Sequence record: MN850617.1
Direction: 5' to 3' (one strand)
DNA from: Escherichia phage forsur
DNA: 42,476 nucleotides
In this document: one piece after another, positions 2 to 41,839 of the stretch
Position numbering within the stretch: position 1 is the stretch's first letter
How the letters are laid out: each line of letters opens with the position of its first letter
The notes under the pieces: model-generated
What the model was told of the DNA's origin: nothing
What the model saw: the letters and a program-made list of their open reading frames with translations, nothing else
The model's database searches: none
Made by a program: the position numbers and the translations under genes

Positions 2-487
2 CGTATCATCTCCATGCTGTTGGAGAAGTTCCCGCAGGTTCACGTAGTGTGTGCCGAGGGCAACCACGATATGGCCAGCTCAATCTGGATGCGAGAGCTG
101 CTGCATGTACTGTACGCCGACGAGCCGCGTGTCACTGTTGACCGCAGCCCTGACCCGTACTACTGCTATGAGCATGGCGAGACGGCACTGTTCTTCCACC
201 ATGGTCACAAGCGTAAGGCTGAGCAACTGGAGACTGTGCTGGTTGCGAAGTTCCGCGAAGTGTATGGCCGAACCAAACATGCGTATGCACACGTTGGCCA
301 CCTGCATCACAAGAAGGTGCTGGAGTCTGCCGTCATGATTGTCGAGCAGCACCAGACGCTGGCAGCGAAAGATGCCTATGCTTCTCGTGGTGGTTGGCTG
401 AGCGAGCGCAGCGCGAGCGTGATTACTTACCACGCCCGGTACGGTGAGGTCGCACGATTCACCATTAGCCCGGAGATGTTGGAGTGA
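2..487 (+). CDS. C-terminal part of a calcineurin-like metallophosphoesterase. The gene is split by the window boundary; the N-terminal part is at 41839..42476
   Basis: The frame is open from position 2. GNHD, FHHGH and GHLHH metal-ligand motifs are present. It joins in frame with the ORF running off the right edge (..VAIRAQ-R-RIISMLLEKF..). Confidence 0.8.
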   Translation, partial: RIISMLLEKFPQVHVVCAEGNHDMASSIWMRELLHVLYADEPRVTVDRSPDPYYCYEHGETALFFHHGHKRKAEQLETVLVAKFREVYGRTKHAYAHVGHLHHKKVLESAVMIVEQHQTLAAKDAYASRGGWLSERSASVITYHARYGEVARFTISPEMLE

Positions 488-708
488 GTAGAACCCTGTA
501 CCAAGAAGATGTGGTGCAGCTCAAAGATGACGGCCTCTCGATAGACTGGGAGGCCAACACGCAGGTCGAGCTGTACAAAGATGGCACCGTCTGTATCTCG
601 CAGGAAGGGGAGCAGGTGTGGGTGCCGTGGGCATATGTCAAAGATATTATCTTCGCTCTTGAGGAAGCACACGATGCACATGAAAGACACCGTAGTAGTA
701 GACCTTGA
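484..708 (+). CDS. hypothetical protein (74 aa)
   Basis: ORF-track ORF. GTG start overlaps the upstream stop, with GGAG adjacent. No recognisable motif. Confidence 0.45.
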   Translation: MSRTLYQEDVVQLKDDGLSIDWEANTQVELYKDGTVCISQEGEQVWVPWAYVKDIIFALEEAHDAHERHRSSRP

Positions 709-1177
709 CGGCACACTGGCTGATGGCCGTTGGCGTCTGCACCTGCTGCCTCCACCGGAGCGTCGGCACCTTGATGAAGCGTGGGCCGAGTTCAACTTGG
801 CTGGCGCTGACGACCCAGCGTTTCAGGACACGATTGATATTGTGAACGCACTGGCCCTCACGTATCGCATTATCATCCTGACCGGACGCGGAGCCGTGGC
901 CCGTGAAGTAACCGAGCAGTGGCTCGATGACAATGGTGTGGTGTACGACAAGCTCATCATGCGTGAGATTGGCGACTGCCGCAAAGACACTGAGATGAAG
1001 CGTGCAGCGCTGGAAGACATTGGCATTGAGAATATTGTCTGTGCCTTTGATGACCTGCCGCACATCGTGGACTTCATGCGAAGCCTAGGCATTACCGTGT
1101 ATGAAGTTACCCGGTACGAGGACAACCATGAGTACGTCCACGCCAATGCGAAATACGATGGAGATAAAGATGCCTAA
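674..1177 (+). CDS. HAD-superfamily phosphatase (nucleotidase / polynucleotide-phosphatase-like)
   Basis: Start trimmed to ATG 674 (GAGGAA 7 nt upstream). VVVDLDGTL DxDxT nucleophile motif, then ILTGR and FDD motifs typical of the HAD fold. Confidence 0.7.
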   Translation: MHMKDTVVVDLDGTLADGRWRLHLLPPPERRHLDEAWAEFNLAGADDPAFQDTIDIVNALALTYRIIILTGRGAVAREVTEQWLDDNGVVYDKLIMREIGDCRKDTEMKRAALEDIGIENIVCAFDDLPHIVDFMRSLGITVYEVTRYEDNHEYVHANAKYDGDKDA

Positions 1178-1890: not shown

Positions 1891-2124
1891 ATGAGCAGAT
1901 ACCAACGAGCCATTGAGGATACCGTGGTCGAGAAAGGTGTGTGCGGGGAGTGCCACGGCTGTGGCACATTCACCAGCATGACCATTCGACACGAGCTTGT
2001 CCAAACTGAATGTGAAGCCTGTGGTGGCACAGGCGTGACTGACCCGGCACTGCAACGTTCAGTGCTGCGGGAACAAGGTATGCGCTGCCAAGTGCAGCCG
2101 GGCTATGACCAACCAACGGAGTAA
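1891..2124 (+). CDS. DnaJ-type zinc-finger protein (77 aa)
   Basis: AGGAG 5 nt upstream of ATG 1891. Two CxxCxGxG motifs (CGECHGCG, CEACGGTG). Confidence 0.65.
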   Translation: MSRYQRAIEDTVVEKGVCGECHGCGTFTSMTIRHELVQTECEACGGTGVTDPALQRSVLREQGMRCQVQPGYDQPTE

Positions 2125-4559
2125 TGATGGACTTACTTGCTGAGCAGATTCGACTGGAAGAAGAAGCGCGAGCCAGACACCGCGAGGGCTGGCTGGATAA
2201 TATCAGAGAGGCGTTGGCCGCTGGCCGGGCTGGTTCAGTACCATTGCTCCAGCGTATGATGGTTGAGGCGTATCCTCAAGTTGAAGCTGCGATGCAAGAA
2301 CTCCTGAATGAAACTGCCCGTGGCTATGGTGCGCAGTACCGGACATACATGCGGGAGCTGGGGCCGCGAGCTTGTGCCTCACTCGCGTTGAGCATGGCTG
2401 TGTCCGGTGCCGCTGCTGAGCAAGCAGTGCTTAACTTGCTCAAGGACATGGGCAAGGCTCTCATGGCTGAGGTGGTGTACCTTCGGGCCAAGGCTGCCGG
2501 GCCTGTGCAGGCTGCGTACATGGCCAAGGTTAAGACTGACGTTAAGCGCTCTCGTTCCAAGTCAGCTAACCATGTGTATAACAAGGCGAAAGCGTCGGCG
2601 TCTAACGTTGGCGTTGAGCTGGATATCCTGCCACAGCGTGCGCTCATCACCATTGGTAAGATGATGATGAAGTGCATCGAGCCTACTGGTCTGCTGGTCA
2701 CTATGCGTGTCGGCGGCAACCACCGTCAGCGCGGCACCGCGCACTTCGCACTGCATGAAGATGTGCTGGCAACGATGAAAGATTGGATGGACTTGCCACG
2801 GGCAGACGGCCTGTGCTGTCCTCCAATGATTATCCCGCCAGCGCAGATTGCACGCGATGGTCGTAGTGGTATGTGGCACTCGCCGGGGCAGGCTGCCATG
2901 TACCGGGCAATCAGCCGCATGAACCACCGTGGCTACCGTGCGCTGGGTGTTGACCCACTGCCCATCATAGAGCCGTGTATGATGCTCAGCAGCGTTCCGT
3001 ACCGAGTTAACCCAATGGTATTGGAGTTCCTGAGAACGAACCGTACAGGCGTTATGGGGCTGCCTGTGCCGCCTCGTGAGCCTAAGCTCCCGTTCACCAT
3101 CCCGGCTGGTGTCAGCTTCGCTCAGTACATTAGCAAGTTCCCACCAGAAATGCAGCAGCAGATGGAGTCGGAAGCCCACGAGTACAAGGTGAAGACCCGT
3201 CTGTATTACAACGAGCTGCGCAAGTTCACGTCACAAATGCTGGCGCTGAACGGTGCAGTCAAAGAGGCCGAGCGCTATGCGCCATACGATAGGGTATATC
3301 TCCCGACTTACGCCGATACGCGGGGCCGAATTTATTATTCTTCGACCCTTAACCCTCAGTCCATCGACGCGGTGCGAGCGCTGCTCGAACTTGCTGAACC
3401 AGTGGCTCTCGGAGACGAGGGGCTGTTCTGGCTCAAGGTACATGTTGCGAATTGTTTTGGATACGACGCCACCGACTTCGACGACCGGGCGGCGTGGACG
3501 GACAAAACACTCCCCCGACTACGTGAGGCGTGCCGTCTTCCAGAGGCATTTGATTCGTTCTGGTCAGAAGCCGATAGCCCTATCTCAGCGTGGGCTGCTG
3601 CTGTTGAACTCATTCGAGCTATCGACTCAGGAAGTCCTGAGACTTATCCCTGCCGAGTGGTTACGCAGTGGGACGCTACATGTTCAGGACTCCAGCACCT
3701 CAGTGCGATGCTACGCGATGAGGTTGGAGGTGCTGCTGTCAATCTTGTCGATAGCGTGGGAAGAAAAGCAGACATATATCTTAAGACGGCAGCAGCGGCG
3801 ATGCAGGCTCTTGAAGAAAGTGAAGCGGCTGCGCCGACGACAATGGGTTCGTGGCTTGTTTCCATCGGCATTGTTCGGGCTATGGCCAAGAAGCCAGTGA
3901 TGACCTACGTGTACGGGGCAACCCGGCACGGCATGGTTGACTACTACTGCCTGTATCTGCGTGAGAACCGGGTCAAGCTGCCGGAGGGTAAGAGCCTGCT
4001 GGAGTGTGCTCAGTTCATTGCTGAGTTTATGTGGGCTGCTATCCCCCGCGTCGTGCCGAAAGCTGCCGAGCTGATGGCATGGTTGCAGGCTATCGCAGTA
4101 GAGGCTGCGAGCATGGGTGAGTACGTGGAGTTCACTGCGCCGTCCGGTCTTCGTGTGGTCAATCTGTATCAGGCCAGCAAAGAGATTGCGCTGAACAACA
4201 TCAACCTCATGGGTATCCACGGCATCAAGCTGCGCGAGTATCTGGATAAGCCAGATGGTCGCAAGTGTGCCGCTGCGATTGCTCCGAATTTTGTACACGC
4301 CATGGATGCCAGTCACATGATGAAGGTTCTGTGGGAGATGTGGAATAACGGGGTATACATGGTATCCATCCACGACTCGTTCGGTGTAGCGGCAGCCCAT
4401 GCTGGGTTACTGCACAAGGTCATCCGTGAAAAGTTTGTGCAGATGTATGAGGAATGTGACCCTATTCAGCAACTTGCGTCAGCATATAACCGTGAAGCTC
4501 CAGCTCGCGGTAATCTGGACATCCAGCTTGTGAAGAAATCAAGCAAGTTCTTCTGCTGA
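2124..4559 (+). CDS. T7-like single-subunit DNA-dependent RNA polymerase (811 aa)
   Basis: KKPVMTYVYGATRHG (motif B-like) and SIHDSFG (motif C catalytic Asp). Size and position (just before the structural genes) fit phiKMV-type phages. Confidence 0.95.
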   Translation: MMDLLAEQIRLEEEARARHREGWLDNIREALAAGRAGSVPLLQRMMVEAYPQVEAAMQELLNETARGYGAQYRTYMRELGPRACASLALSMAVSGAAAEQAVLNLLKDMGKALMAEVVYLRAKAAGPVQAAYMAKVKTDVKRSRSKSANHVYNKAKASASNVGVELDILPQRALITIGKMMMKCIEPTGLLVTMRVGGNHRQRGTAHFALHEDVLATMKDWMDLPRADGLCCPPMIIPPAQIARDGRSGMWHSPGQAAMYRAISRMNHRGYRALGVDPLPIIEPCMMLSSVPYRVNPMVLEFLRTNRTGVMGLPVPPREPKLPFTIPAGVSFAQYISKFPPEMQQQMESEAHEYKVKTRLYYNELRKFTSQMLALNGAVKEAERYAPYDRVYLPTYADTRGRIYYSSTLNPQSIDAVRALLELAEPVALGDEGLFWLKVHVANCFGYDATDFDDRAAWTDKTLPRLREACRLPEAFDSFWSEADSPISAWAAAVELIRAIDSGSPETYPCRVVTQWDATCSGLQHLSAMLRDEVGGAAVNLVDSVGRKADIYLKTAAAAMQALEESEAAAPTTMGSWLVSIGIVRAMAKKPVMTYVYGATRHGMVDYYCLYLRENRVKLPEGKSLLECAQFIAEFMWAAIPRVVPKAAELMAWLQAIAVEAASMGEYVEFTAPSGLRVVNLYQASKEIALNNINLMGIHGIKLREYLDKPDGRKCAAAIAPNFVHAMDASHMMKVLWEMWNNGVYMVSIHDSFGVAAAHAGLLHKVIREKFVQMYEECDPIQQLASAYNREAPARGNLDIQLVKKSSKFFC

Positions 4560-4584: not shown

Positions 4585-4607
4585 TTATGAAAGTGACTAT
4601 AGTGATA
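4585..4607 (+). promoter_or_regulatory. phage-RNAP promoter candidate P1 (TTATGAAAGTGACTATA|GTGATA)
   Basis: 23-nt motif with T7/SP6-like architecture (AT-rich -17..-13, CTATA at -5..-1, G at +1 = 4602). It lies in the gap after the RNAP gene at the head of the late operon. A perfect inverted copy is at 26463..26485 and near copies at 4852 and 33177. Confidence 0.6.
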
Positions 4608-4666: not shown

Positions 4667-4852
4667 ATGGGTAAAGAATCTCCATTAGATAGAGTAACAT
4701 TCACTAAAGCTCAGATAGCTCTACTGGAAAAGCACTTCGGTACATGGGTACAGGTAGGCAGAACAGTAACACCTGACACTAACCTACCACTGATTAACAG
4801 AGAAGCTGGTAAGCAGGATGTACTGGACTTCATCCGTGAAAGAGTGATTTGA
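4667..4852 (+). CDS. hypothetical protein (61 aa)
   Basis: Start trimmed to ATG 4667 (GAGAGG upstream). The track's TTG start at 4568 lies upstream of the predicted transcription start. Confidence 0.55.
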   Translation: MGKESPLDRVTFTKAQIALLEKHFGTWVQVGRTVTPDTNLPLINREAGKQDVLDFIRERVI

Positions 4853-4874
4853 AATGAAAGTGACTATTATGGGA
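4852..4874 (+). promoter_or_regulatory. weaker phage-promoter-like copy P2 (AAATGAAAGTGACTATT|ATGGGA)
   Basis: 14-nt identity (ATGAAAGTGACTAT) to P1, but -1/+1 diverge. It overlaps the start of the GNAT gene. Confidence 0.3.
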
Positions 4875-5273
4875 AATACAACGCACACGACTATGCCTCT
4901 TGACATTCGGCGTGCGGTGGCCGAGGGCATACAAGCCGAGCGGCCATGGTCAGACCTATCTCCCGATGTGATAGTCGAACGCATGTACGAGGCCACTGCC
5001 GCTGGTTGCGTTGACGTTTACATTACTGCCGACGACGATGGCCTCATGGCTGTTGCTCACATCGGCAGGTTATTCGATATTCATGTGGGCGAGATGGTGG
5101 TCATTATGGCCTCATACGTCTGGCCCCAGTACAGAAACCGTGGAGTGATGCGTGCCATCCTCCGTGTACTCAAAGACGTGGCCCGTTCCGAGGGTGTACG
5201 TTGGTGCGGTTACTCCCACATGGTGCGGCCTTACGTTCAGGAGTACCGCTTCATAGATTTGGAGAAACCGTAA
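4854..5273 (+). CDS. GNAT-family N-acetyltransferase (139 aa; alternative start 4869)
   Basis: VWPQYRNRGVMRAILRVL matches GNAT motif A (R-x-x-G-x-G/A acetyl-CoA loop), preceded by a beta-strand-rich segment. Confidence 0.7.
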   Translation: MKVTIMGNTTHTTMPLDIRRAVAEGIQAERPWSDLSPDVIVERMYEATAAGCVDVYITADDDGLMAVAHIGRLFDIHVGEMVVIMASYVWPQYRNRGVMRAILRVLKDVARSEGVRWCGYSHMVRPYVQEYRFIDLEKP

Positions 5274-24983: not shown

Positions 24984-25335
24984 CATCCACTCGCGTATGG
25001 GCGCTGTGGAGGCTCGTATGCAATCCGTAGAAACACGCCTCGACAAACACGAGATTCAAATCGCCAACCTTGAGAAAGGTGACGCTGCTATGCTGGCCAA
25101 GCTATCGGAGAACGACTCCCGGTGGCTGGAGATTCAGCAGCAGCTCCGTGTCGTCGAGCAAATTCAGGACATTCAAAAGACTATGAGCCACATCGGTAAG
25201 CTGTTCTCTTACGCGGCTCACGCCGTCAAGTGGTGTCTCCTGACCGCTTCACTCGTTAGCGGTATCTATCTTGCGGTCAAGGCTGGCGACCTAACGGCGC
25301 TCCAGTCCTTTATCACAACGATTATGGGGATGTAA
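24952..25335 (+). CDS. membrane protein, holin candidate (127 aa; N-terminal coiled coil, single C-terminal TMD)
   Basis: GAAGGTGAAAG upstream of ATG 24952. TMD VKWCLLTASLVSGIYLAV. Lies immediately upstream of the endolysin and coupled to it (ATGTAATG). Confidence 0.45.
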   Translation: MTEAKKEPAPNIHSRMGAVEARMQSVETRLDKHEIQIANLEKGDAAMLAKLSENDSRWLEIQQQLRVVEQIQDIQKTMSHIGKLFSYAAHAVKWCLLTASLVSGIYLAVKAGDLTALQSFITTIMGM

Positions 25336-25871
25336 TGACTAACTTTGAAATCTGTATGAAGTTCACCGGGCTGGCCGAGGGTGGATACACCAAGCTGCCC
25401 GGTGACACTGGAGGGGAAACCAACCATGGAATTAGTGACGCTCGTGATGGGAAGCTGGATGGCAGAGCTTGTGGTGTCCCTACTGGGCTTGGCGGCACTG
25501 TGTGCGTGCCTATCAAAGACCTCACCAAAGAGCAAGCCGAGGCAATCTATCGCCGGGACTACTACAGCCCCATCAGAGGTGACGAGCTTCACCCTGCGAT
25601 TGCATGTGCCGTGTTTGATTACGGCGTCAACTCCGGCATCTCCCGTGCTGCTAAAGCTCTACAGCGGGTATGCGGCGTTGCACAGGACGGGGACATTGGT
25701 ACTGTCACCTTGGAAGCAGCACAACGTCTGGAACCTCACGCCGCAGCAGCAGCCATCTGTGACCTTCGTATTGCGTTCCTAAAGGCTTCTAAAGCCCCGA
25801 CAGTCGTTCGGTATAGGGATGCCTTGGTTGCTCGTGCAAAACGCTGTAGCGCTTACTGTGCGACGCTGTAG
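25335..25871 (+). CDS. endolysin, GH108-type muramidase with a PG_binding_3-like C-terminal domain (178 aa)
   Basis: N-terminal GLAEGGYTKLPGDTGGETNHGIS (the EGGY..D.GG.T..GI signature) and a later QDGDIGTVTLEAA motif. No signal or SAR segment. Confidence 0.85.
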   Translation: MTNFEICMKFTGLAEGGYTKLPGDTGGETNHGISDARDGKLDGRACGVPTGLGGTVCVPIKDLTKEQAEAIYRRDYYSPIRGDELHPAIACAVFDYGVNSGISRAAKALQRVCGVAQDGDIGTVTLEAAQRLEPHAAAAAICDLRIAFLKASKAPTVVRYRDALVARAKRCSAYCATL

Positions 25872-25900
25872 GGGCATCTGAAAGCTGACACATTGAACAG

Positions 25901-25930
25901 GCCGTGGGTGCAATACCCCGGCTTGAAAAT
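25901..25930 (+). terminator. stem-loop after the last late gene (weak terminator candidate)
   Basis: GCCGtGGG-TGCAATA-CCCCGGC (25901..25922) followed by TTGAAAATTG. Confidence 0.35.
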
Positions 25931-25939
25931 TGAACGTTT

Positions 25940-26455
25940 ATGCGTGGGCCTCCCTCGACCCGAATGACCGCGCGTACCCCCATGACGTGTGCGCGGATTA
26001 GCCTCGCGACGTGCGCGATATTGCTCGCGTGCGCTGCGCGGCGCGTCAAGAGGATTGCCTGCGTGCGGTATAGCTCGTGCGTGTCGCGTTTCATCGTCTG
26101 CCGTGTGGCGTGCTGTGCGCTGTCCTGCTGGCTGTGCTGTGCGGTGCTGTCCTATGGGGACGCTCTGCGCTGGCTGTGCTGTGCTGCGTGCTGCGCTCGG
26201 TCGGGCGGGTATCTGTCTCTTTTGCCGTGGTACGCTCTGCGCCGTGGTGGTGCTGTGTGGTGGTGGTGCTGCCGTGGTGCTGTCCTGTCTGCTGGTCTAC
26301 TGTCTGCGCCGCCAGCTCTGCGCGTCATGCTCTGCTACCTGCTGCTACTGTCCTACTGCGTTCACTGGCTGCCGCCTGTCATCCTGTCGGATTCCATCCG
26401 TTGCCGTTCCGCGCTCGCTTGTTTCGGCTGCGCCGCGCTCGCTCTGCGTATCTAG
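25940..26455. repeat. GC-rich, A-depleted (+ strand) low-complexity tract with short degenerate direct repeats; probable location of the collapsed terminal repeat / concatemer junction
   Basis: By hand count there are about 15 A in 26101..26450, with A-free runs of 53, 50 and 66 nt. Recurring GCTGTGCTGTGC, GGTGCTGTCCTG, GCCGTGGT and CGCTCTGCGC units. Confidence 0.7.
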
Positions 26456-26462
26456 CGATACA

Positions 26463-26485
26463 TATCACTATAGTCACTTTCATAA
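26463..26485 (-). promoter_or_regulatory. phage-RNAP promoter candidate P3, inverted (leftward) perfect copy of P1
   Basis: The reverse complement of 26463..26485 equals TTATGAAAGTGACTATAGTGATA, identical to 4585..4607. Predicted +1 is the G complementary to 26468, transcribing toward 25940. Confidence 0.5.
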
Positions 26486-26622
26486 TTATCTATTGATATC
26501 AGTAACTTATAACCTATCTGATAACGGTATCTATCCTATGCAATAACCTATTCAATCAAATATTTATTCCTAATGATTACAGTAACTTATCCACTATTTG
26601 AGCTATTCAGTGAAAATAAATC

Positions 26623-26651
26623 TTGCAATGCTGTTTGTGATTTGCTGTAAT
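26623..26651 (+). promoter_or_regulatory. sigma70 early promoter candidate PE0
   Basis: TTGCAA (26623-26628), 17-nt spacer, extended -10 TGcTGTAAT (TGTAAT at 26646-26651). Confidence 0.55.
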
Positions 26652-26726
26652 TCTCATCGCCGGGTAGCAGAACATCGCTACACGGTGGCAAGACGGTAAC
26701 ACTGCTCTTTAACAATCTGGAGTGTA

Positions 26727-26755
26727 TTGACAAGGCAAGCTCACTATGCTGTAAT
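26727..26755 (+). promoter_or_regulatory. sigma70 early promoter PE1
   Basis: Consensus TTGACA (26727-26732), 17-nt spacer, extended -10 TGcTGTAAT (26750-26755). Confidence 0.8.
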
Positions 26756-26863
26756 GCTTCCAGTCAGCCAGACAAGCCAAACAGTCATGGATAAAGACGT
26801 TAAAACCCGCGCAGGCTAACTGGTACGGATTATTCATCTCAGAATGGGCGCTGAATAAAACGG

Positions 26864-26892
26864 TTGACAGGATGAAACGAGTATGCTGTAAT
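26864..26892 (+). promoter_or_regulatory. sigma70 early promoter PE2
   Basis: TTGACA (26864-26869), 17-nt spacer, TGcTGTAAT (26887-26892). Confidence 0.8.
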
Positions 26893-26944
26893 ACGCTCCA
26901 GATTGACAGGGCAAGCAAGCCTGACAGTCAGTAGTAAAAAGTAG

Positions 26945-26973
26945 TTGACAAGCTGAATACACTGTGTTGTAAT
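26945..26973 (+). promoter_or_regulatory. sigma70 early promoter PE3
   Basis: TTGACA (26945-26950), 17-nt spacer, TGtTGTAAT (26968-26973). Confidence 0.8.
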
Positions 26974-27451
26974 CAGCACCGAGTTGGAAGGATGCAAAAC
27001 ATCCTGCTCTGAGTGAACGCAAACTGGCCGCGTAGTGTCACGGCTCACTGGGTATCCGCCGCAGGTTGGAACTGGGTGAGGCATCGCCGAAAGGCAACGG
27101 TATCGCAACAATGCTAACGCCGTAGGGGTAGCGCCTGATGCAAGGTAACGGAGAAGCGCGATAGACGCAGCGCAGTATCAGTACAATACCAAACGTCTTA
27201 TAAGGCGCGGAGTATAGCGGGTAGGTAGTCAAACGGCTTGTTAGCTGGCAACGGTGAGCAAGATACGCGACGGACTGCTGGAAGACTCCTGAGAGTGGAT
27301 GCAGACAATATCCACAGCGCGAAATGGGCGGGGCGATTTTTCAGGGTAGTGAATCCGACAAGCCAATCAATGCCACTGAGTGCAGACTGTACGGCGCGTC
27401 ACAATGGGTTCACTATCCACCTGAAAATAGCCAACAACTGGAGAAATAACT

Positions 27452-27844
27452 ATGTACCGTATCTATGCAAGCGCATATCGTCAGAACAACGCTGAGTGTG
27501 TTAATCTGGCGCTTCATTGCAAGGCACTGCGAACGGTGCAGGATATGTTCGGAGTGATTCCGGTCACACTGACAGGCAAGTTCGACAATGCGTATGAGTT
27601 AAGCATGGTCTTTCCTGTCGATGGAATCTACGAAATCAGACAGGCTGTTAAGCTGTTCTGTAAAGCCTTTGAACAGGACTGCATCATGGTAGTGACCGAT
27701 GACAATGATGCAATCTTCATGGATTCACCATATCCGGGCAAGCCTGCTGGCAAGTTTGTCAGCAAGACAGAAGCGGAGATGGAAGCCGGGCAGTTCACTG
27801 CTTGGACTTACGATGGTGAGCAATTTTGGGTAGTGGAGGCGTAA
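27452..27844 (+). CDS. first early protein, T3 gp0.3-like SAM hydrolase/lyase candidate (130 aa)
   Basis: GGAG upstream. Block resemblance to T3 SAMase as I recall it (ASAYRQNNAECVNL.. vs VSAFRSNLCDEVNM..; FCKAFEQDCIMVV vs ACNEWEQDCVLVY). Occupies the first early gene position. Confidence 0.5.
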   Translation: MYRIYASAYRQNNAECVNLALHCKALRTVQDMFGVIPVTLTGKFDNAYELSMVFPVDGIYEIRQAVKLFCKAFEQDCIMVVTDDNDAIFMDSPYPGKPAGKFVSKTEAEMEAGQFTAWTYDGEQFWVVEA

Positions 27845-33176: not shown

Positions 33177-33199
33177 TTATGAAGGTGACTATATTGGAC
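33177..33199 (+). promoter_or_regulatory. phage-RNAP promoter candidate P4 (TTATGAAGGTGACTATA|TTGGAC)
   Basis: 16 of 17 identity to P1 over -17..-1. Intergenic, at the head of the replication module. Directly preceded by the hairpin ATGCCAG-(11 nt)-CTGGCAT (33153..33177). Confidence 0.55.
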
Positions 33200-40557: not shown

Positions 40558-41532
40558 ATGAGTAGACTTCAACGCTTACTCCACAATGCAGAGGAACTTG
40601 ATGACCAGTTTGATGGTTACGTGTCTGGTCGTATCTTGCTGTGCGATGCTGACTCCACGGTCTACGTCGCGGCAGCAACCACGAAGAACATCGAGACAGC
40701 GAAGACACGATTCTGTTCCGGGGTACTGACCGCCAAGTTCCTCGCCAATGCTCAGTCAGTTCGTATCGAGTTGACCGCTGCGGAGTGTACGAAAGCTGGA
40801 CGGTACAAGCTGCGTGGGGCCAAGCTGTACCAAGGCAACCGAGACAAAGACCGCAAGCCCGGTCTGGTCGAACCGTTGCGTAAAGCAATTGGCCGGAACA
40901 TGTTCAACGTCCCGGATGGTGAGGACTGGTACGTCCACCTGAACTTTGAGTTCGAGGCAGACGATACCTTAATCATGGATGCGTGGACGATTGGCATTAA
41001 CGATGCAGTAATCTACAGCGCGGATAAAGACCTGCGTTGTTGGCCGGGCAGATTCCTTGACCCGTATGACAACAAGGTGCTGGAGCCGTGCGTTGGTATT
41101 GGCAGGCTGTGGTGGCATGAAACGAAAAGCGACAAGTCGCTGGTCGGCCATGGGCCTATCTTCTTTTGGGCGCAGATGTTGATGGGCGACACCGCCGACA
41201 ACATTGCTGGCGTGAAGAAGGTTGGTAAGCAGACTGCCTACGACATGCTGGTTGATTATCAAGAGATTGATGATGAATCAGTGGTTGCGGAATTGGTGCT
41301 GCGTGAGTACATGCAGCGTGACCAGAACCCGTGGCCGGAGGCAGTGGCGCTGTGGCTGTACCGCACGCCGACCTACTCATTCGCAGCCCACTTGAACACG
41401 CTGACCTTGAGCAAGGAGCTGCGTGTCTGGCTGCATAAGAAACTGGGTGAGGAATGGTATGCGGAAAGTGACTGGCGCGACTCTGTTGCAGCTTCGGAAG
41501 AATGCGATGGGTTGCAACTGCCCACTCTGTGA
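40558..41532 (+). CDS. 5'-3' exonuclease (FEN/T7 gp6-like, 324 aa)
   Basis: PIN-like acidic clusters (LCDADS, ADDTLI, SADKDL) and the H3TH motif MGDTADNIAGVKKVGKQTAYDML. Confidence 0.88.
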   Translation: MSRLQRLLHNAEELDDQFDGYVSGRILLCDADSTVYVAAATTKNIETAKTRFCSGVLTAKFLANAQSVRIELTAAECTKAGRYKLRGAKLYQGNRDKDRKPGLVEPLRKAIGRNMFNVPDGEDWYVHLNFEFEADDTLIMDAWTIGINDAVIYSADKDLRCWPGRFLDPYDNKVLEPCVGIGRLWWHETKSDKSLVGHGPIFFWAQMLMGDTADNIAGVKKVGKQTAYDMLVDYQEIDDESVVAELVLREYMQRDQNPWPEAVALWLYRTPTYSFAAHLNTLTLSKELRVWLHKKLGEEWYAESDWRDSVAASEECDGLQLPTL

Positions 41533-41839
41533 TGAGCCGATGGTTGACCTCAAGCTCATGGTGGTTGACCACGACCATGTGACTGGAGAGATTCGCGGTG
41601 TTATCTGCCGCTGGTGTAATGCTCAGCTCGGTAAGGTGGAGAACTCTGCCAACCGAGCAAAGCGCCAGCGCACAGTGGATGACTGGTTGGATAGCGCCAT
41701 CGAGTGGCGACGTAAGCAGCACACTGGTCTGATGTATCCGACACATAAGACAGAGGCTGAGAAGAAAGCGGCAGCAGCCGACAGACGTAAAAAGGCAGCA
41801 GCAGCTAAAGCGCGTGCCATAATCACTAAGGGGAAATGA
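41459..41839 (+). CDS. recombination endonuclease VII (126 aa)
   Basis: Start trimmed to ATG 41459 (GAGGA upstream). CNCPLC..VDHDHVTGEIRGVICRWCNAQLG signature. Overlaps the exonuclease gene by 74 nt. Confidence 0.85.
   Translation: MRKVTGATLLQLRKNAMGCNCPLCDEPMVDLKLMVVDHDHVTGEIRGVICRWCNAQLGKVENSANRAKRQRTVDDWLDSAIEWRRKQHTGLMYPTHKTEAEKKAAAADRRKKAAAAKARAIITKGK

What the first reader, a model, noticed from the sequence alone, without database searches (positions are those of the whole stretch)
26463..26485. Perfect 23-nt copy of the late phage promoter, inverted and firing leftward in an otherwise single-strand genome
Seen in sequence: the reverse complement of 26463..26485 is TTATGAAAGTGACTATAGTGATA, identical to 4585..4607. 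The conserved span is exactly the -17..+6 footprint of T7-type promoters, and only in this orientation.

Every gene in the genome is on the + strand, yet this copy would start at 26468 and transcribe leftward. It would first pass a 5' hairpin (GTATC-TAGC-GATAC, 26448-26461), then the A-depleted tract, and, if not stopped, run antisense to the endolysin, holin and spanin genes.

Inference: possible roles are (a) primer or R-loop RNA for a replication origin (an AT-rich block lies immediately behind it, as in T7 origins that pair promoters with AT-rich DNA), (b) transcription-coupled processing of the concatemer junction, convergent with the class-II site at 26211, or (c) antisense control of lysis timing.
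Basis: partly seen in the sequence, partly recalled or inferred. Interest (0 to 1): 0.72.

Follow-up and report, generated by a model that had tools for sequence, protein, structure and literature searches.

The report
Backward-facing phage promoter at genome end
This T7-like coliphage carries an exact copy of its own RNA-polymerase promoter pointing backwards at the left genome end, a feature kept in all its relatives and already shown to be active in a related Pseudomonas phage, though nobody yet knows what it is for.

Summary
The 23-mer TTATGAAAGTGACTATAGTGATA occurs exactly twice: forward at 4585-4607, 26 nt after the phage RNA polymerase gene, and inverted at 26463-26485.

The window is a circularly permuted Bonnellvirus genome (subfamily Stentvirinae, phiKMV-like gene order). 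Every relative examined has four copies of this motif: three forward at operon starts and one inverted at the left end. I found seven sequence variants of the motif. In each, the inverted copy matches the forward copies, and the differences between RNA polymerases cluster in the specificity loop. This makes it a genuine phage-polymerase promoter.

By homology with J8-65, whose ends are annotated, the start site at 26468 lies 514 nt from the physical left end. It sits about 270 bp right of the terminal repeat and fires into an A-poor spacer and then the repeat.

The arrangement is not new. Long-read transcriptomics of phage LUZ19 (Putzeys 2024) detected an antisense phage-specific promoter, P001. 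I located its motif at the matching place in the LUZ19 record. T7 (phiOL) and KP34 (S2) have a promoter at the same distance from the repeat, but facing right.

The function is unresolved. I favour a role in DNA-end replication or repeat maturation; the published guess is insulation of early genes.

Verdict: a new member of a known kind, of moderate interest.

The parts
26463..26485 (-). Inverted phage-RNAP promoter (P_inv), positions -17..+6. The predicted start site (+1) is 26468 and transcription runs leftward.
   Evidence: Exact 23-nt match to 4585-4607. An inverted copy is present at the same place in 16 Bonnellvirus genomes counting this window, plus LIMEzero and 2 IMG/VR contigs, and it always carries that genome's own promoter variant.
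26448..26461 (-). Small 5' hairpin in the leftward transcript (about +8 to +21).
   Evidence: Predicted in the MFE and centroid structures. J8-65 has a hairpin at the same place with a different sequence. The leader is not more stable than shuffles (z = +0.38).
4585..4607 (+). P_late1: forward promoter 26 nt after the RNAP stop codon, ahead of the structural genes.
   Evidence: LIMEzero's homologous site is annotated 'putative phage specific promoter'. It corresponds to LUZ19 P007.
4852..4874 (+). P_late2: forward promoter-like copy overlapping the ATG of the GNAT acetyltransferase gene (4854-5273).
   Evidence: ATGAAAGTGACTATTA at 4854. It co-varies with the other sites in all relatives, even at the cost of changing codons 3-4. 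GNAT family assignment by Pfam.
33177..33199 (+). P_mid: forward promoter copy upstream of the primase/helicase module.
   Evidence: ATGAAGGTGACTATAT at 33179, followed by GGAGG and an ATG. It co-varies in all relatives. The homologous LIMEzero site is annotated as a phage promoter.
2124..4559 (+). [quoted passage not shown]
   Evidence: Pfam PF00940, E = 7.7e-84. Aligns to T7 RNAP in PDB. Group-diagnostic substitutions cluster in residues 688-700, which correspond to T7 742-754 in the specificity loop.
25955..26199 (.). Predicted terminal repeat, present as one collapsed copy. The physical left end is predicted at 25955 (TCGACCC).
   Evidence: J8-65's record has identical 259-bp repeats at both ends. 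Its first bases TCGACCCGAA align to window 25955, and its repeat end aligns to about 26199. This is an inference for the window.
26210..26223 (+). Class-II-like element TATCTGTCTCTTTT, just right of the predicted repeat.
   Evidence: Unique in the genome. Conserved as TATCT[GA]TCT[CT]TTT in all 16 Bonnellvirus genomes. It starts 12 bp after the repeat end in J8-65. In T7, ATCTGTT sits at 161-167, directly after the 160-bp repeat.
26224..26447 (.). A-poor spacer transcribed by P_inv. The + strand is C+T-rich near the promoter, so the leftward RNA is purine-rich and nearly U-free.
   Evidence: Composition: leftward RNA nt 1-169 is 66% purine and 9% U. The distance from the class-II-like element to +1 is 242-263 nt in 15 of 16 Bonnellvirus genomes despite many indels; the outlier is smaasur at 296.
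26486..26620 (.). AT-rich block upstream of P_inv. It contains two 32-nt direct repeats (26490-26521 and 26570-26601) and a conserved AATCAAATATTTA.
   Evidence: GC 28-30%. Repeat family D4, 78% identity, 80-bp spacing. Conservation seen in the alignment.
26623..26973 (+). Early host-type promoters (TTGCAA/TTGACA-N17-TGTAAT, at about 26623, 26727, 26864 and 26945), diverging from P_inv.
   Evidence: Read from the sequence and strongly conserved in relatives. The consensus scanner did not call them because the -10 hexamer is TGTAAT.

Best explanation
The inverted 23-mer is a working promoter for the phage's own single-subunit RNA polymerase. It is the Stentvirinae counterpart of LUZ19 promoter P001, and it occupies the slot of T7 phiOL in the opposite orientation. 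It expresses no gene.

Once the polymerase has been made, it starts at 26468 and transcribes leftward. It passes through a roughly 245-nt A-poor spacer and then the terminal repeat. The RNA is almost free of U, and no terminator lies in its path. On a unit-length genome it therefore runs off the left end after 514 nt. On concatemers it crosses the junction.

The mechanism I favour is inferred, not shown. I propose the element acts on DNA rather than through its RNA. Transcription into the repeat from its right flank would open the DNA and leave a purine-rich RNA:DNA hybrid. That hybrid would prime or license leftward DNA synthesis across the repeat. This would serve replication of the left end and duplication or processing of the repeat at concatemer junctions. 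The leftward transcription would also underwind the AT-rich block behind the promoter.

In this reading P_inv mirrors T7 phiOR, which as I recall lies left of the repeat and faces right into it.
For: Promoter identity (strong evidence):
- Exact 23-nt identity to the site immediately after the RNAP gene.
- Exactly four copies in each of 16 Bonnellvirus genomes (this window included). Three are forward at the starts of the replication and late modules, and one is inverted.
- Four haplotypes at positions -9..-6 (GTGA, GTGT, GCTA, GTAA) change together at the sites. The exceptions are one site each in J8-65 and Lidtsur, which read GTAT.
- LIMEzero and two IMG/VR contigs have quite different promoter sequences, yet each has an inverted copy at the same border.
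- RNAP substitutions that distinguish the promoter groups hit 9 of 13 residues at 688-700, against 21 of 484 elsewhere in the C-terminal 497 residues. Residues 688-700 align with T7 742-754, including R746 and N748.
- LUZ19 P001, an antisense phage-specific promoter, was detected by ONT-cappable-seq, and its transcripts reach the right-end genes (PMC10914365). I located its motif at 736-748 (-), about 260 bp right of the 472-bp repeat.

DNA-level role (weak, inferential evidence):
- No conserved ORF lies downstream. The 101-aa minus-strand ORF crosses the genome end and loses its ATG in RZ4.
- A phage promoter sits about 245-275 bp right of the repeat in T7 (phiOL at 405, repeat 160), KP34 (S2 at 475-490, repeat 216), LUZ19 and J8-65. 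Its orientation differs among them. That argues for a function tied to place rather than to what lies downstream.
- The spacer is A-poor in the leftward lineages (6-16% A) and less so in KP34 (18%) and T7 (37%).
- The first 250 nt of the leftward RNA rank in the top 1-3% of genome windows for RNA:DNA hybrid stability relative to duplex stability.
- No terminator-like site occurs on either strand in 25300-27500.
- A conserved class-II-like element sits just right of the repeat, as in T7.
Against: - There are no transcript data, replication data or packaging data for any Stentvirinae phage.
- In T7 origins the AT-rich DNA lies downstream of the promoter. Here it lies upstream.
- The hybrid-stability ranking used nearest-neighbour parameters recalled from memory, and it is top 1-3%, not extreme.
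- The link between orientation and composition rests on only two leftward and two rightward lineages.
- SP6 has no phage promoter in its first 1500 bp, so a left-end promoter is not universal among these phages.
- The only published hypothesis for the LUZ19 homologue is transcriptional insulation, not a DNA role.
- T7 phiOL is, as far as I recall, dispensable.
Confidence: 0.42

Rival explanations
1. Transcriptional insulator or antisense regulator, the hypothesis published for LUZ19 P001. On concatemers, leftward transcription from P_inv meets late transcription that has read through the lysis genes and the repeat. This stops late transcription from entering the early genes. The resulting antisense RNA over the junction and lysis cassette may also tune lysis timing.
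For: In LUZ19 the antisense transcripts from the homologous promoter extend over the rightmost genes gp47-49, and the authors propose exactly this role. In the window no terminator-like site separates the lysis genes from the early promoters, so some barrier is plausible. P_inv lies between the last late gene and the first early promoter.
Against: T7 and KP34 carry a promoter at the same place pointing into the early genes, so those relatives do not avoid phage-polymerase transcription of early genes. The hypothesis does not explain the A-poor spacer or the conserved distance from the repeat. From memory, convergent T7 polymerases have been reported to pass one another in vitro. The antisense RNA does not cover any early gene.
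Confidence: 0.3
2. Replication origin by transcriptional activation only. P_inv and the divergent host promoters pump negative supercoils into the AT-rich block between them (26486-26620). The block melts and loads the helicase-primase. The RNA itself is irrelevant.
For: Divergent promoters flank a 135-bp block of 28-30% GC. The block contains two 32-nt direct repeats and a conserved AATCAAATATTTA, which matches the IHF consensus as I recall it. From general knowledge, T7 secondary origins are promoter plus AT-rich DNA, and phiOL is one of them. A free DNA end 514 bp ahead would let positive supercoils escape.
Against: There is no origin mapping in any phiKMV-like phage of this group. The LUZ19 region behind P001 is not AT-rich. 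This model alone does not explain the compositional bias of the transcribed spacer.
Confidence: 0.15
3. The site is not used as a promoter. It is instead a binding site for another protein (terminase, a recombinase or a repressor), or a neutral duplicate with no function.
For: There are no transcript data for this phage. GenBank's glasur record happens to start exactly at the base equivalent to 26463.
Against: The inverted copy tracks every change of the forward promoters across seven variants, and those changes track the polymerase specificity loop. This is not expected for a site read by another protein or for a neutral relic. The LUZ19 homologue has a mapped transcription start.
Confidence: 0.05

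Closest known systems
LUZ19 P001, the antisense phage-specific promoter of Phikmvvirus (Putzeys et al. 2024, PMC10914365)
   Same: [quoted passage not shown]
- It has the opposite orientation to all genes.
- It lies between the direct terminal repeat and the host-type early promoters, about 260 bp right of the repeat.
- It transcribes an A-poor spacer and has no gene downstream.
   Different: - It belongs to a different subfamily (Krylovirinae rather than Stentvirinae). RNAP identity is about 31% to other phiKMV-like Pseudomonas phages.
- The promoter sequence is unrelated.
- The DNA behind the LUZ19 promoter is not AT-rich.
- I saw no class-II-like element next to the LUZ19 repeat.
- LUZ19 has a third forward promoter in the structural region, whereas this phage has one before the primase module.
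- The LUZ19 promoter is experimentally mapped. This one is predicted.
T7 phiOL, the left-end 'replication' promoter
   Same: It is a phage-RNAP promoter about 245 bp right of the terminal repeat. It follows a repetitive non-coding spacer and precedes the host early promoters, with AT-rich DNA on its right side (plus general knowledge from Dunn and Studier 1983).
   Different: phiOL points rightward, into the AT-rich DNA and the early genes. P_inv points leftward, into the spacer and the repeat. The T7 spacer is A-rich at 37%.
KP34 strong promoter S2 (Lu et al. 2019, PMC6834552)
   Same: It is a left-end copy of the promoter found just behind the RNAP gene. It lies 259 bp right of the 216-bp repeat and upstream of the host promoter. 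It was shown to be active in vitro.
   Different: It faces rightward. Its spacer is only moderately A-poor at 18%.
T7 phiOR and the concatemer-junction (CJ) class II pause site
   Same: T7 has a non-coding phage promoter that fires into the terminal repeat from unique flanking DNA. It also has an ATCTGTT-type element directly to the right of the repeat (for the CJ position; for the class II definition).
   Different: phiOR lies left of the repeat and faces right. P_inv lies right of the repeat and faces left. The element here is TATCTGTC, a 6/7 match, and no forward promoter is found near the right end. The role and position of phiOR are from memory and were not checked here.
T7 A0, a leftward E. 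coli promoter at nt 224
   Same: It drives leftward transcription toward the left genome end from just right of the repeat, and its function is unknown (annotation in NC_001604).
   Different: It is read by the host polymerase, not the phage polymerase, so it acts early rather than late.

Membership tests
T7-type single-subunit RNAP promoter | A conserved motif of about 17-23 bp spanning -17..+6 recurs at several sites in one genome. | tested here: met
   Four sites share ATGAA[AG]GTGACTAT, and two are identical over 23 nt.
T7-type single-subunit RNAP promoter | The same genome encodes the cognate single-subunit RNAP. | tested here: met
   PF00940, E = 7.7e-84. It also aligns to T7 RNAP structures.
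T7-type single-subunit RNAP promoter | Promoter sequence and RNAP specificity loop change together among relatives. | tested here: met
   There are seven promoter variants. The inverted copy and the forward copies examined in each genome carry that genome's variant, with two single-site exceptions. Diagnostic RNAP substitutions are concentrated in residues 688-700, equivalent to T7 742-754.
T7-type single-subunit RNAP promoter | The phage RNAP initiates at +1 in vitro or in vivo. | not testable with these tools
   This needs run-off transcription or 5'-end mapping. Evidence exists only for the LUZ19 homologue and for KP34 S1/S2.
Antisense left-end promoter of phiKMV-like phages (LUZ19 P001 type) | It carries the same motif as the promoters downstream of the RNAP gene but lies on the opposite strand to all genes. 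| tested here: met
   All annotated genes of real length run on one strand in the relatives.
Antisense left-end promoter of phiKMV-like phages (LUZ19 P001 type) | It is located between the direct terminal repeat and the host-type early promoters. | tested here: met
   In J8-65 the repeat is 1-259, +1 is at 533 and the first TTGACA promoter is near 795. In the window the position follows from the alignment. In LUZ19 the repeat is 1-472, the motif is at 736-748 and the sigma70 promoters begin at 913.
Antisense left-end promoter of phiKMV-like phages (LUZ19 P001 type) | Antisense transcripts are detected that extend across the genome end. | not testable with these tools
   No RNA data exist for this phage. 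No terminator-like site lies in the transcript's path.
T7 phiOL-type replication promoter or origin | A phage promoter lies a few hundred bp right of the terminal repeat, before the early host promoters. | tested here: met
   The distance from the repeat end is about 270 bp here and in J8-65, against 245 bp in T7.
T7 phiOL-type replication promoter or origin | The promoter points rightward, with the AT-rich region downstream of the start site. | tested here: not met
   The promoter points leftward, and the AT-rich block (26486-26620) is upstream of it.
T7 phiOL-type replication promoter or origin | It supports initiation of DNA replication. | not testable with these tools
   This needs origin mapping.
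T7 class II (CJ-type) pause or termination signal (neighbouring element at 26210-26223) | The non-template strand carries the core HATCTGTT. | tested here: not met
   The element reads TATCTGTC, 6 of 7 core bases, and J8-65 reads TATCTATC. For T7 RNAP any core change is reported to abolish function. The cognate enzyme here is only distantly related to T7 RNAP (alignment), so its own signal could differ.
T7 class II (CJ-type) pause or termination signal (neighbouring element at 26210-26223) | A T-rich tract follows the core, and the element sits immediately right of the terminal repeat. | tested here: met
   CTCTTTT follows the core. The element starts 12 bp after the repeat in J8-65, and T7 has ATCTGTT at 161-167 after a 160-bp repeat.

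The most novel reading that the evidence does not exclude
Several lineages of RNAP-encoding podophages (Studiervirinae, Slopekvirinae, Krylovirinae, Stentvirinae) share a cis-acting left-end module. It is a phage-polymerase promoter held about 245-275 bp from the terminal repeat, and its orientation can flip between lineages. In the lineages where it faces the repeat, the transcribed spacer has evolved to lack A. The resulting RNA is U-free, cannot be terminated, and forms an unusually stable hybrid with its template. That hybrid would prime or license copying of the terminal repeat. If correct, this would give a concrete, testable mechanism for how these phages duplicate their terminal repeats and replicate their left ends.
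Probability: 0.22. Interest if true: 0.72.

Novelty: new member of a known kind. Interest (0 to 1): 0.42.

Why it matters
How T7-like phages duplicate their terminal repeat during concatemer processing has never been settled, and neither has the purpose of their non-coding 'replication promoters'.

This finding shows that the antisense left-end promoter discovered in Pseudomonas phage LUZ19 is not peculiar to that genus. It is also present in E. coli phages that are easy to manipulate genetically (J8-65, the '-sur' phages, and this one). In these phages the promoter is a well-defined T7-like sequence, and the host is E. coli K-12 for most of them.

The comparison across lineages turns a vague 'antisense RNA' into a defined cis element that can be inverted, moved or mutated. 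The relevant features are the same distance from the repeat, either orientation, and an A-poor spacer in the two leftward lineages examined.

There is also a practical point. Annotation pipelines and earlier manual annotation (LIMEzero) missed the inverted copy.

Tried and rejected
- **SP6 precedent.** I recalled that SP6 has a leftward left-end promoter. I checked and found no SP6-promoter match within 2 mismatches in the first 1500 bp, so I dropped the idea.
- **Coding explanation.** The long ORFs across 25789-26546 on both strands are by-products of strand composition, since stop codons cannot occur in an A-free or T-free strand. The 101-aa minus-strand ORF crosses the physical genome end and loses its ATG in RZ4.
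- **Known RNA family.** Rfam found nothing in 25700-27500 at E <= 1.
- **Leader hairpin as a structured element.** It is present but no more stable than shuffled sequence.
- **Intrinsic terminators around the junction.** The scanner found none.
- **Exact T7 class II motif.** HATCTGTT occurs only at chance frequency elsewhere in the genome and not at the junction.
- **Searches that gave little.** The needed locus came from an endolysin-based search instead.
- **Literature.** Searches on J8-65, LIMEzero, JG068, KP34-like viruses and the first LUZ19 RNA-seq paper found no description of a leftward promoter. That first LUZ19 study was not strand-specific. The SP6 genome paper is not held. The supplementary tables of the LUZ19 cappable-seq paper are not held either, so I located P001 from the published motif.

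Full report
**1. The observation**

The 23-mer TTATGAAAGTGACTATAGTGATA occurs exactly twice in the window: at 4585-4607 on the + strand and at 26463-26485 on the - strand. There are no further matches even with three mismatches, and none in shuffled controls. The bases flanking the 23-mer differ on both sides. On T7 numbering the inverted copy would start at 26468 and transcribe leftward.

- The hairpin sits at 26448-26461.
- An A-poor tract runs from 25955 to 26467, with 7-9% A against 23% genome-wide.
- An AT-rich block lies behind the promoter, with 28-30% GC.
- TATCTGTCTCTTTT sits at 26210-26223.

**2. What the window is**

The window is a circularly permuted, complete genome of a Bonnellvirus. 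This genus belongs to the Autographiviridae; in newer taxonomy it is Autoscriptoviridae, subfamily Stentvirinae, which holds Bonnellvirus and Waewaevirus. The closest relatives are Escherichia phages glasur and usur, Cronobacter RZ4 and Kosakonia Kc261.

The gene order is phiKMV-like. The single-subunit RNA polymerase gene (2124-4559; PF00940) ends the DNA-metabolism module. The structural, packaging and lysis genes follow, ending at 25871.

The forward 23-mer lies 26 nt after the polymerase stop codon. That is where phiKMV-like phages place their main late promoter.

**3. Is it a promoter?**

I collected 15 Bonnellvirus genomes from GenBank, LIMEzero (Waewaevirus; RNAP 70% identical) and three IMG/VR contigs.

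Every Bonnellvirus genome, this window included, has exactly four copies of the motif. In the window they are:
- one before the primase/helicase module (33179);
- one just after the polymerase gene (4587);
- one overlapping the ATG of the following GNAT acetyltransferase gene (4854);
- one inverted copy (26483).

Positions -9..-6 occur as four haplotypes: GTGA, GTGT, GCTA and GTAA. Within each genome the sites carry the same haplotype. The exceptions are one site each in J8-65 and Lidtsur, which read GTAT. At the acetyltransferase site this concerted change alters the encoded amino acids.

Three further lineages have very different promoter sequences, yet each has an inverted copy at the same border:
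- LIMEzero: AAGGCAAGCACTAAGG;
- IMG/VR 3300030930_000003: ATGAACATCCGTACTAAGG;
- IMG/VR 2228664000_000004: AAAACTACTATCATGCTAGTGA.

LIMEzero's GenBank record annotates the two forward sites as 'putative phage specific promoter' but not the inverted one.

The polymerase differences that separate the promoter groups are concentrated. They hit 9 of 13 residues at 688-700 (IALNNINLMGIHG), against 21 of 484 elsewhere in the C-terminal 497 residues. HMMER aligns this stretch with T7 residues 742-754, the arm of the specificity loop that carries R746 and N748.

Sites that change in concert with each other and with the polymerase's DNA-reading loop are hard to explain except as promoters of that polymerase.

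**4. Where it sits on the real molecule**

The J8-65 record carries identical 259-bp repeats at both ends. Its first bases, TCGACCCGAA, align to window 25955, and the repeat ends at about 26199.

From left to right the predicted layout is:
- terminal repeat, 25955 to about 26199;
- a strictly conserved TATCT[GA]TCT[CT]TTT element, starting 12 bp after the repeat in J8-65;
- an A-poor spacer;
- the inverted promoter;
- a 135-bp AT-rich block with two 32-nt direct repeats;
- four host-type promoters (TTGACA-N17-TGTAAT);
- the first gene, a SAMase.

The leftward transcript would be 514 nt on a unit-length genome. Across the Bonnellvirus genomes this length is about 487-568 nt. The distance from the class-II-like element to +1 is 242-263 nt in 15 of 16 genomes despite many indels.

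No terminator-like site lies on either strand in this region. No Rfam family matches. No conserved ORF lies downstream.

**5. What is already known**

The decisive precedent is Putzeys et al. 2024 (PMC10914365). ONT-cappable-seq of LUZ19 (Phikmvvirus) found four phage-specific promoters sharing a 20-bp motif:
- two directly downstream of the polymerase gene;
- one in the structural region;
- one, P001, in the opposite orientation to the genes.

Transcripts from P001 extend over the rightmost genes. The same antisense promoter was predicted in 15 other Phikmvvirus species. The authors suggest it prevents transcription from running into the early genes on the circularised genome.

I located the motif in the LUZ19 record at 736-748 (-). 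That is about 260 bp right of the 472-bp repeat and upstream of the sigma70 promoters that begin at 913. The spacer it transcribes is 6% A. The architecture in the window is therefore the same one, in a different subfamily and with an unrelated promoter sequence.

Other relatives have a left-end phage promoter at about the same distance from the repeat, but facing right.
- T7 phiOL starts at 405 with a 160-bp repeat.
- KP34 strong promoter S2 lies at 475-490 (+) with a 216-bp repeat, and it is active in vitro.
- SP6 has no phage promoter in its first 1500 bp.
- T7 also has a leftward host promoter, A0, at 224, and the class II pause signal ATCTGTT at 161-167, directly after its repeat.

**6. 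How it most likely works**

Three things are shown or strongly supported:
- it is a promoter of the phage polymerase;
- it expresses no gene;
- nothing in its path should stop the polymerase.

So it transcribes the spacer and the repeat, and on concatemers it crosses the junction, as happens in LUZ19.

Beyond that the argument is inference. I favour a DNA-level role at 0.42 for three reasons.
- The promoter keeps its distance from the repeat in four lineages while its orientation differs. That ties the function to the place rather than to a downstream target.
- In the lineages where it faces the repeat, the transcribed strand is depleted of A (6-16%, against 18% in KP34 and 37% in T7). The RNA therefore has almost no U and is 66% purine over its first 169 nt. 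Its first 250 nt rank in the top 1-3% of genome windows for predicted RNA:DNA hybrid stability relative to duplex stability. That calculation used nearest-neighbour parameters recalled from memory.
- The repeat is flanked by a conserved T7-CJ-like element.

A leftward replication bubble primed or licensed from this promoter would copy the repeat. That is what concatemer maturation needs.

The main rival, at 0.30, is the published insulator or antisense idea. It fits the LUZ19 transcripts. It does not explain the spacer composition, the conserved distance, or why T7 and KP34 aim the equivalent promoter into the early genes.

A pure 'supercoiling pump' origin model (0.15) fits the divergent promoters around the AT-rich block. 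It does not fit LUZ19, where that block is not AT-rich.

A non-promoter reading (0.05) is contradicted by the co-variation.

**7. Verdict**

The choice among functional options remains open, and some analogies were loose.
- The AT-rich DNA is on the wrong side for a T7-type origin.
- The class II element matches only 6 of 7 core bases.
- The hairpin is unremarkable.

The feature is a new member of a kind first documented in 2024, not a new kind. Its value lies in extending that kind to genetically tractable coliphages. It also lies in the cross-lineage pattern of fixed distance, flipped orientation and A-poor spacer, which suggests testable experiments on terminal-repeat replication.

Noticed in passing
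window 4852-4874 (+), overlapping the start of gene 4854-5273: A fourth promoter copy (ATGAAAGTGACTATTA) overlaps the ATG of the GNAT acetyltransferase gene, which looks Rac-like. It co-varies with the other promoters in all relatives, even though this changes codons 3-4 (MKVT, MKVS, MKAT). The predicted +1..+3 coincide with a second in-frame ATG (GTG in J8-65). A leaderless or shortened form of the protein might therefore be made from this promoter.
   Followed up: partly
window 26210-26223 (+): TATCTGTCTCTTTT is unique in the genome and conserved in all 16 Bonnellvirus genomes. In J8-65 it starts 12 bp right of the terminal repeat, mirroring T7's CJ class II pause site (ATCTGTT at 161-167, after a 160-bp repeat). 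LIMEzero-like phages have CTACCTCTTTTGC or CAATCTCTTTTGC at the same place. It may be the pause signal of this polymerase family.
   Followed up: partly
window 25955-26467: The predicted terminal repeat plus spacer is A-depleted on the + strand (7-9% A). The composition switches near 26300, from G+T-rich on the repeat side to C+T-rich on the promoter side. LUZ19 shows the same A-depletion. This composition creates stop-free ORFs on both strands, which several GenBank records annotate as hypothetical proteins (for example Kc261 41017-41556 and glasur_55).
   Followed up: partly
window 26486-26620: The AT-rich block contains two 32-nt direct repeats 80 bp apart (26490-26521 and 26570-26601; core CAGTAACTTAT). 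Between them lies a strictly conserved AATCAAATATTTA, which matches the IHF consensus WATCAANNNNTTR as I recall it. A related motif (TACATACACTTA) recurs in the same block of the LIMEzero-like phages. This could be a protein-binding or origin-like element.
   Followed up: no
window 25906-25960: A conserved hairpin (GCCGTGGG...CCCCGGC) is followed by TTGAAAATTG and then GGGCCTCCC|TCGACCC, which is the predicted junction between right-end unique DNA and the repeat. This stretch is conserved even in a distant 42-kb IMG/VR contig (L169). It is a candidate late terminator and/or terminase cleavage signal.
   Followed up: no
window 2124-4559, RNAP residues 688-700: The substitutions that distinguish the promoter-variant groups cluster in IALNNINLMGIHG, which aligns with T7 RNAP 742-754 (R746, N748). 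These closely related phages therefore offer natural polymerase-promoter pairs that differ at positions -9..-6.
   Followed up: partly
L007 (glasur MN850583.1) position 1, equivalent to window 26463: The glasur GenBank record begins exactly at the last base (+6) of the inverted promoter. This is probably an assembly or coverage artefact at the GC-rich/AT-rich border, but I did not check it.
   Followed up: no
window 26623-26973: Four early host-type promoters all use the unusual -10 hexamer TGTAAT preceded by TGC (extended -10). The consensus scanner missed them. The sequence GCTCTTTAACAATCTGG at 26703-26719 is conserved in all relatives. As I recall, it also occurs upstream of T7 gene 0.3, at the RNase III site R0.3.
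   Followed up: no
L172 (T7 NC_001604) position 224: The T7 reference record annotates a leftward E. coli promoter, A0, at nt 224, between the terminal repeat and phiOL. So T7 also has leftward transcription toward its left end, but driven by the host polymerase.
   Followed up: no
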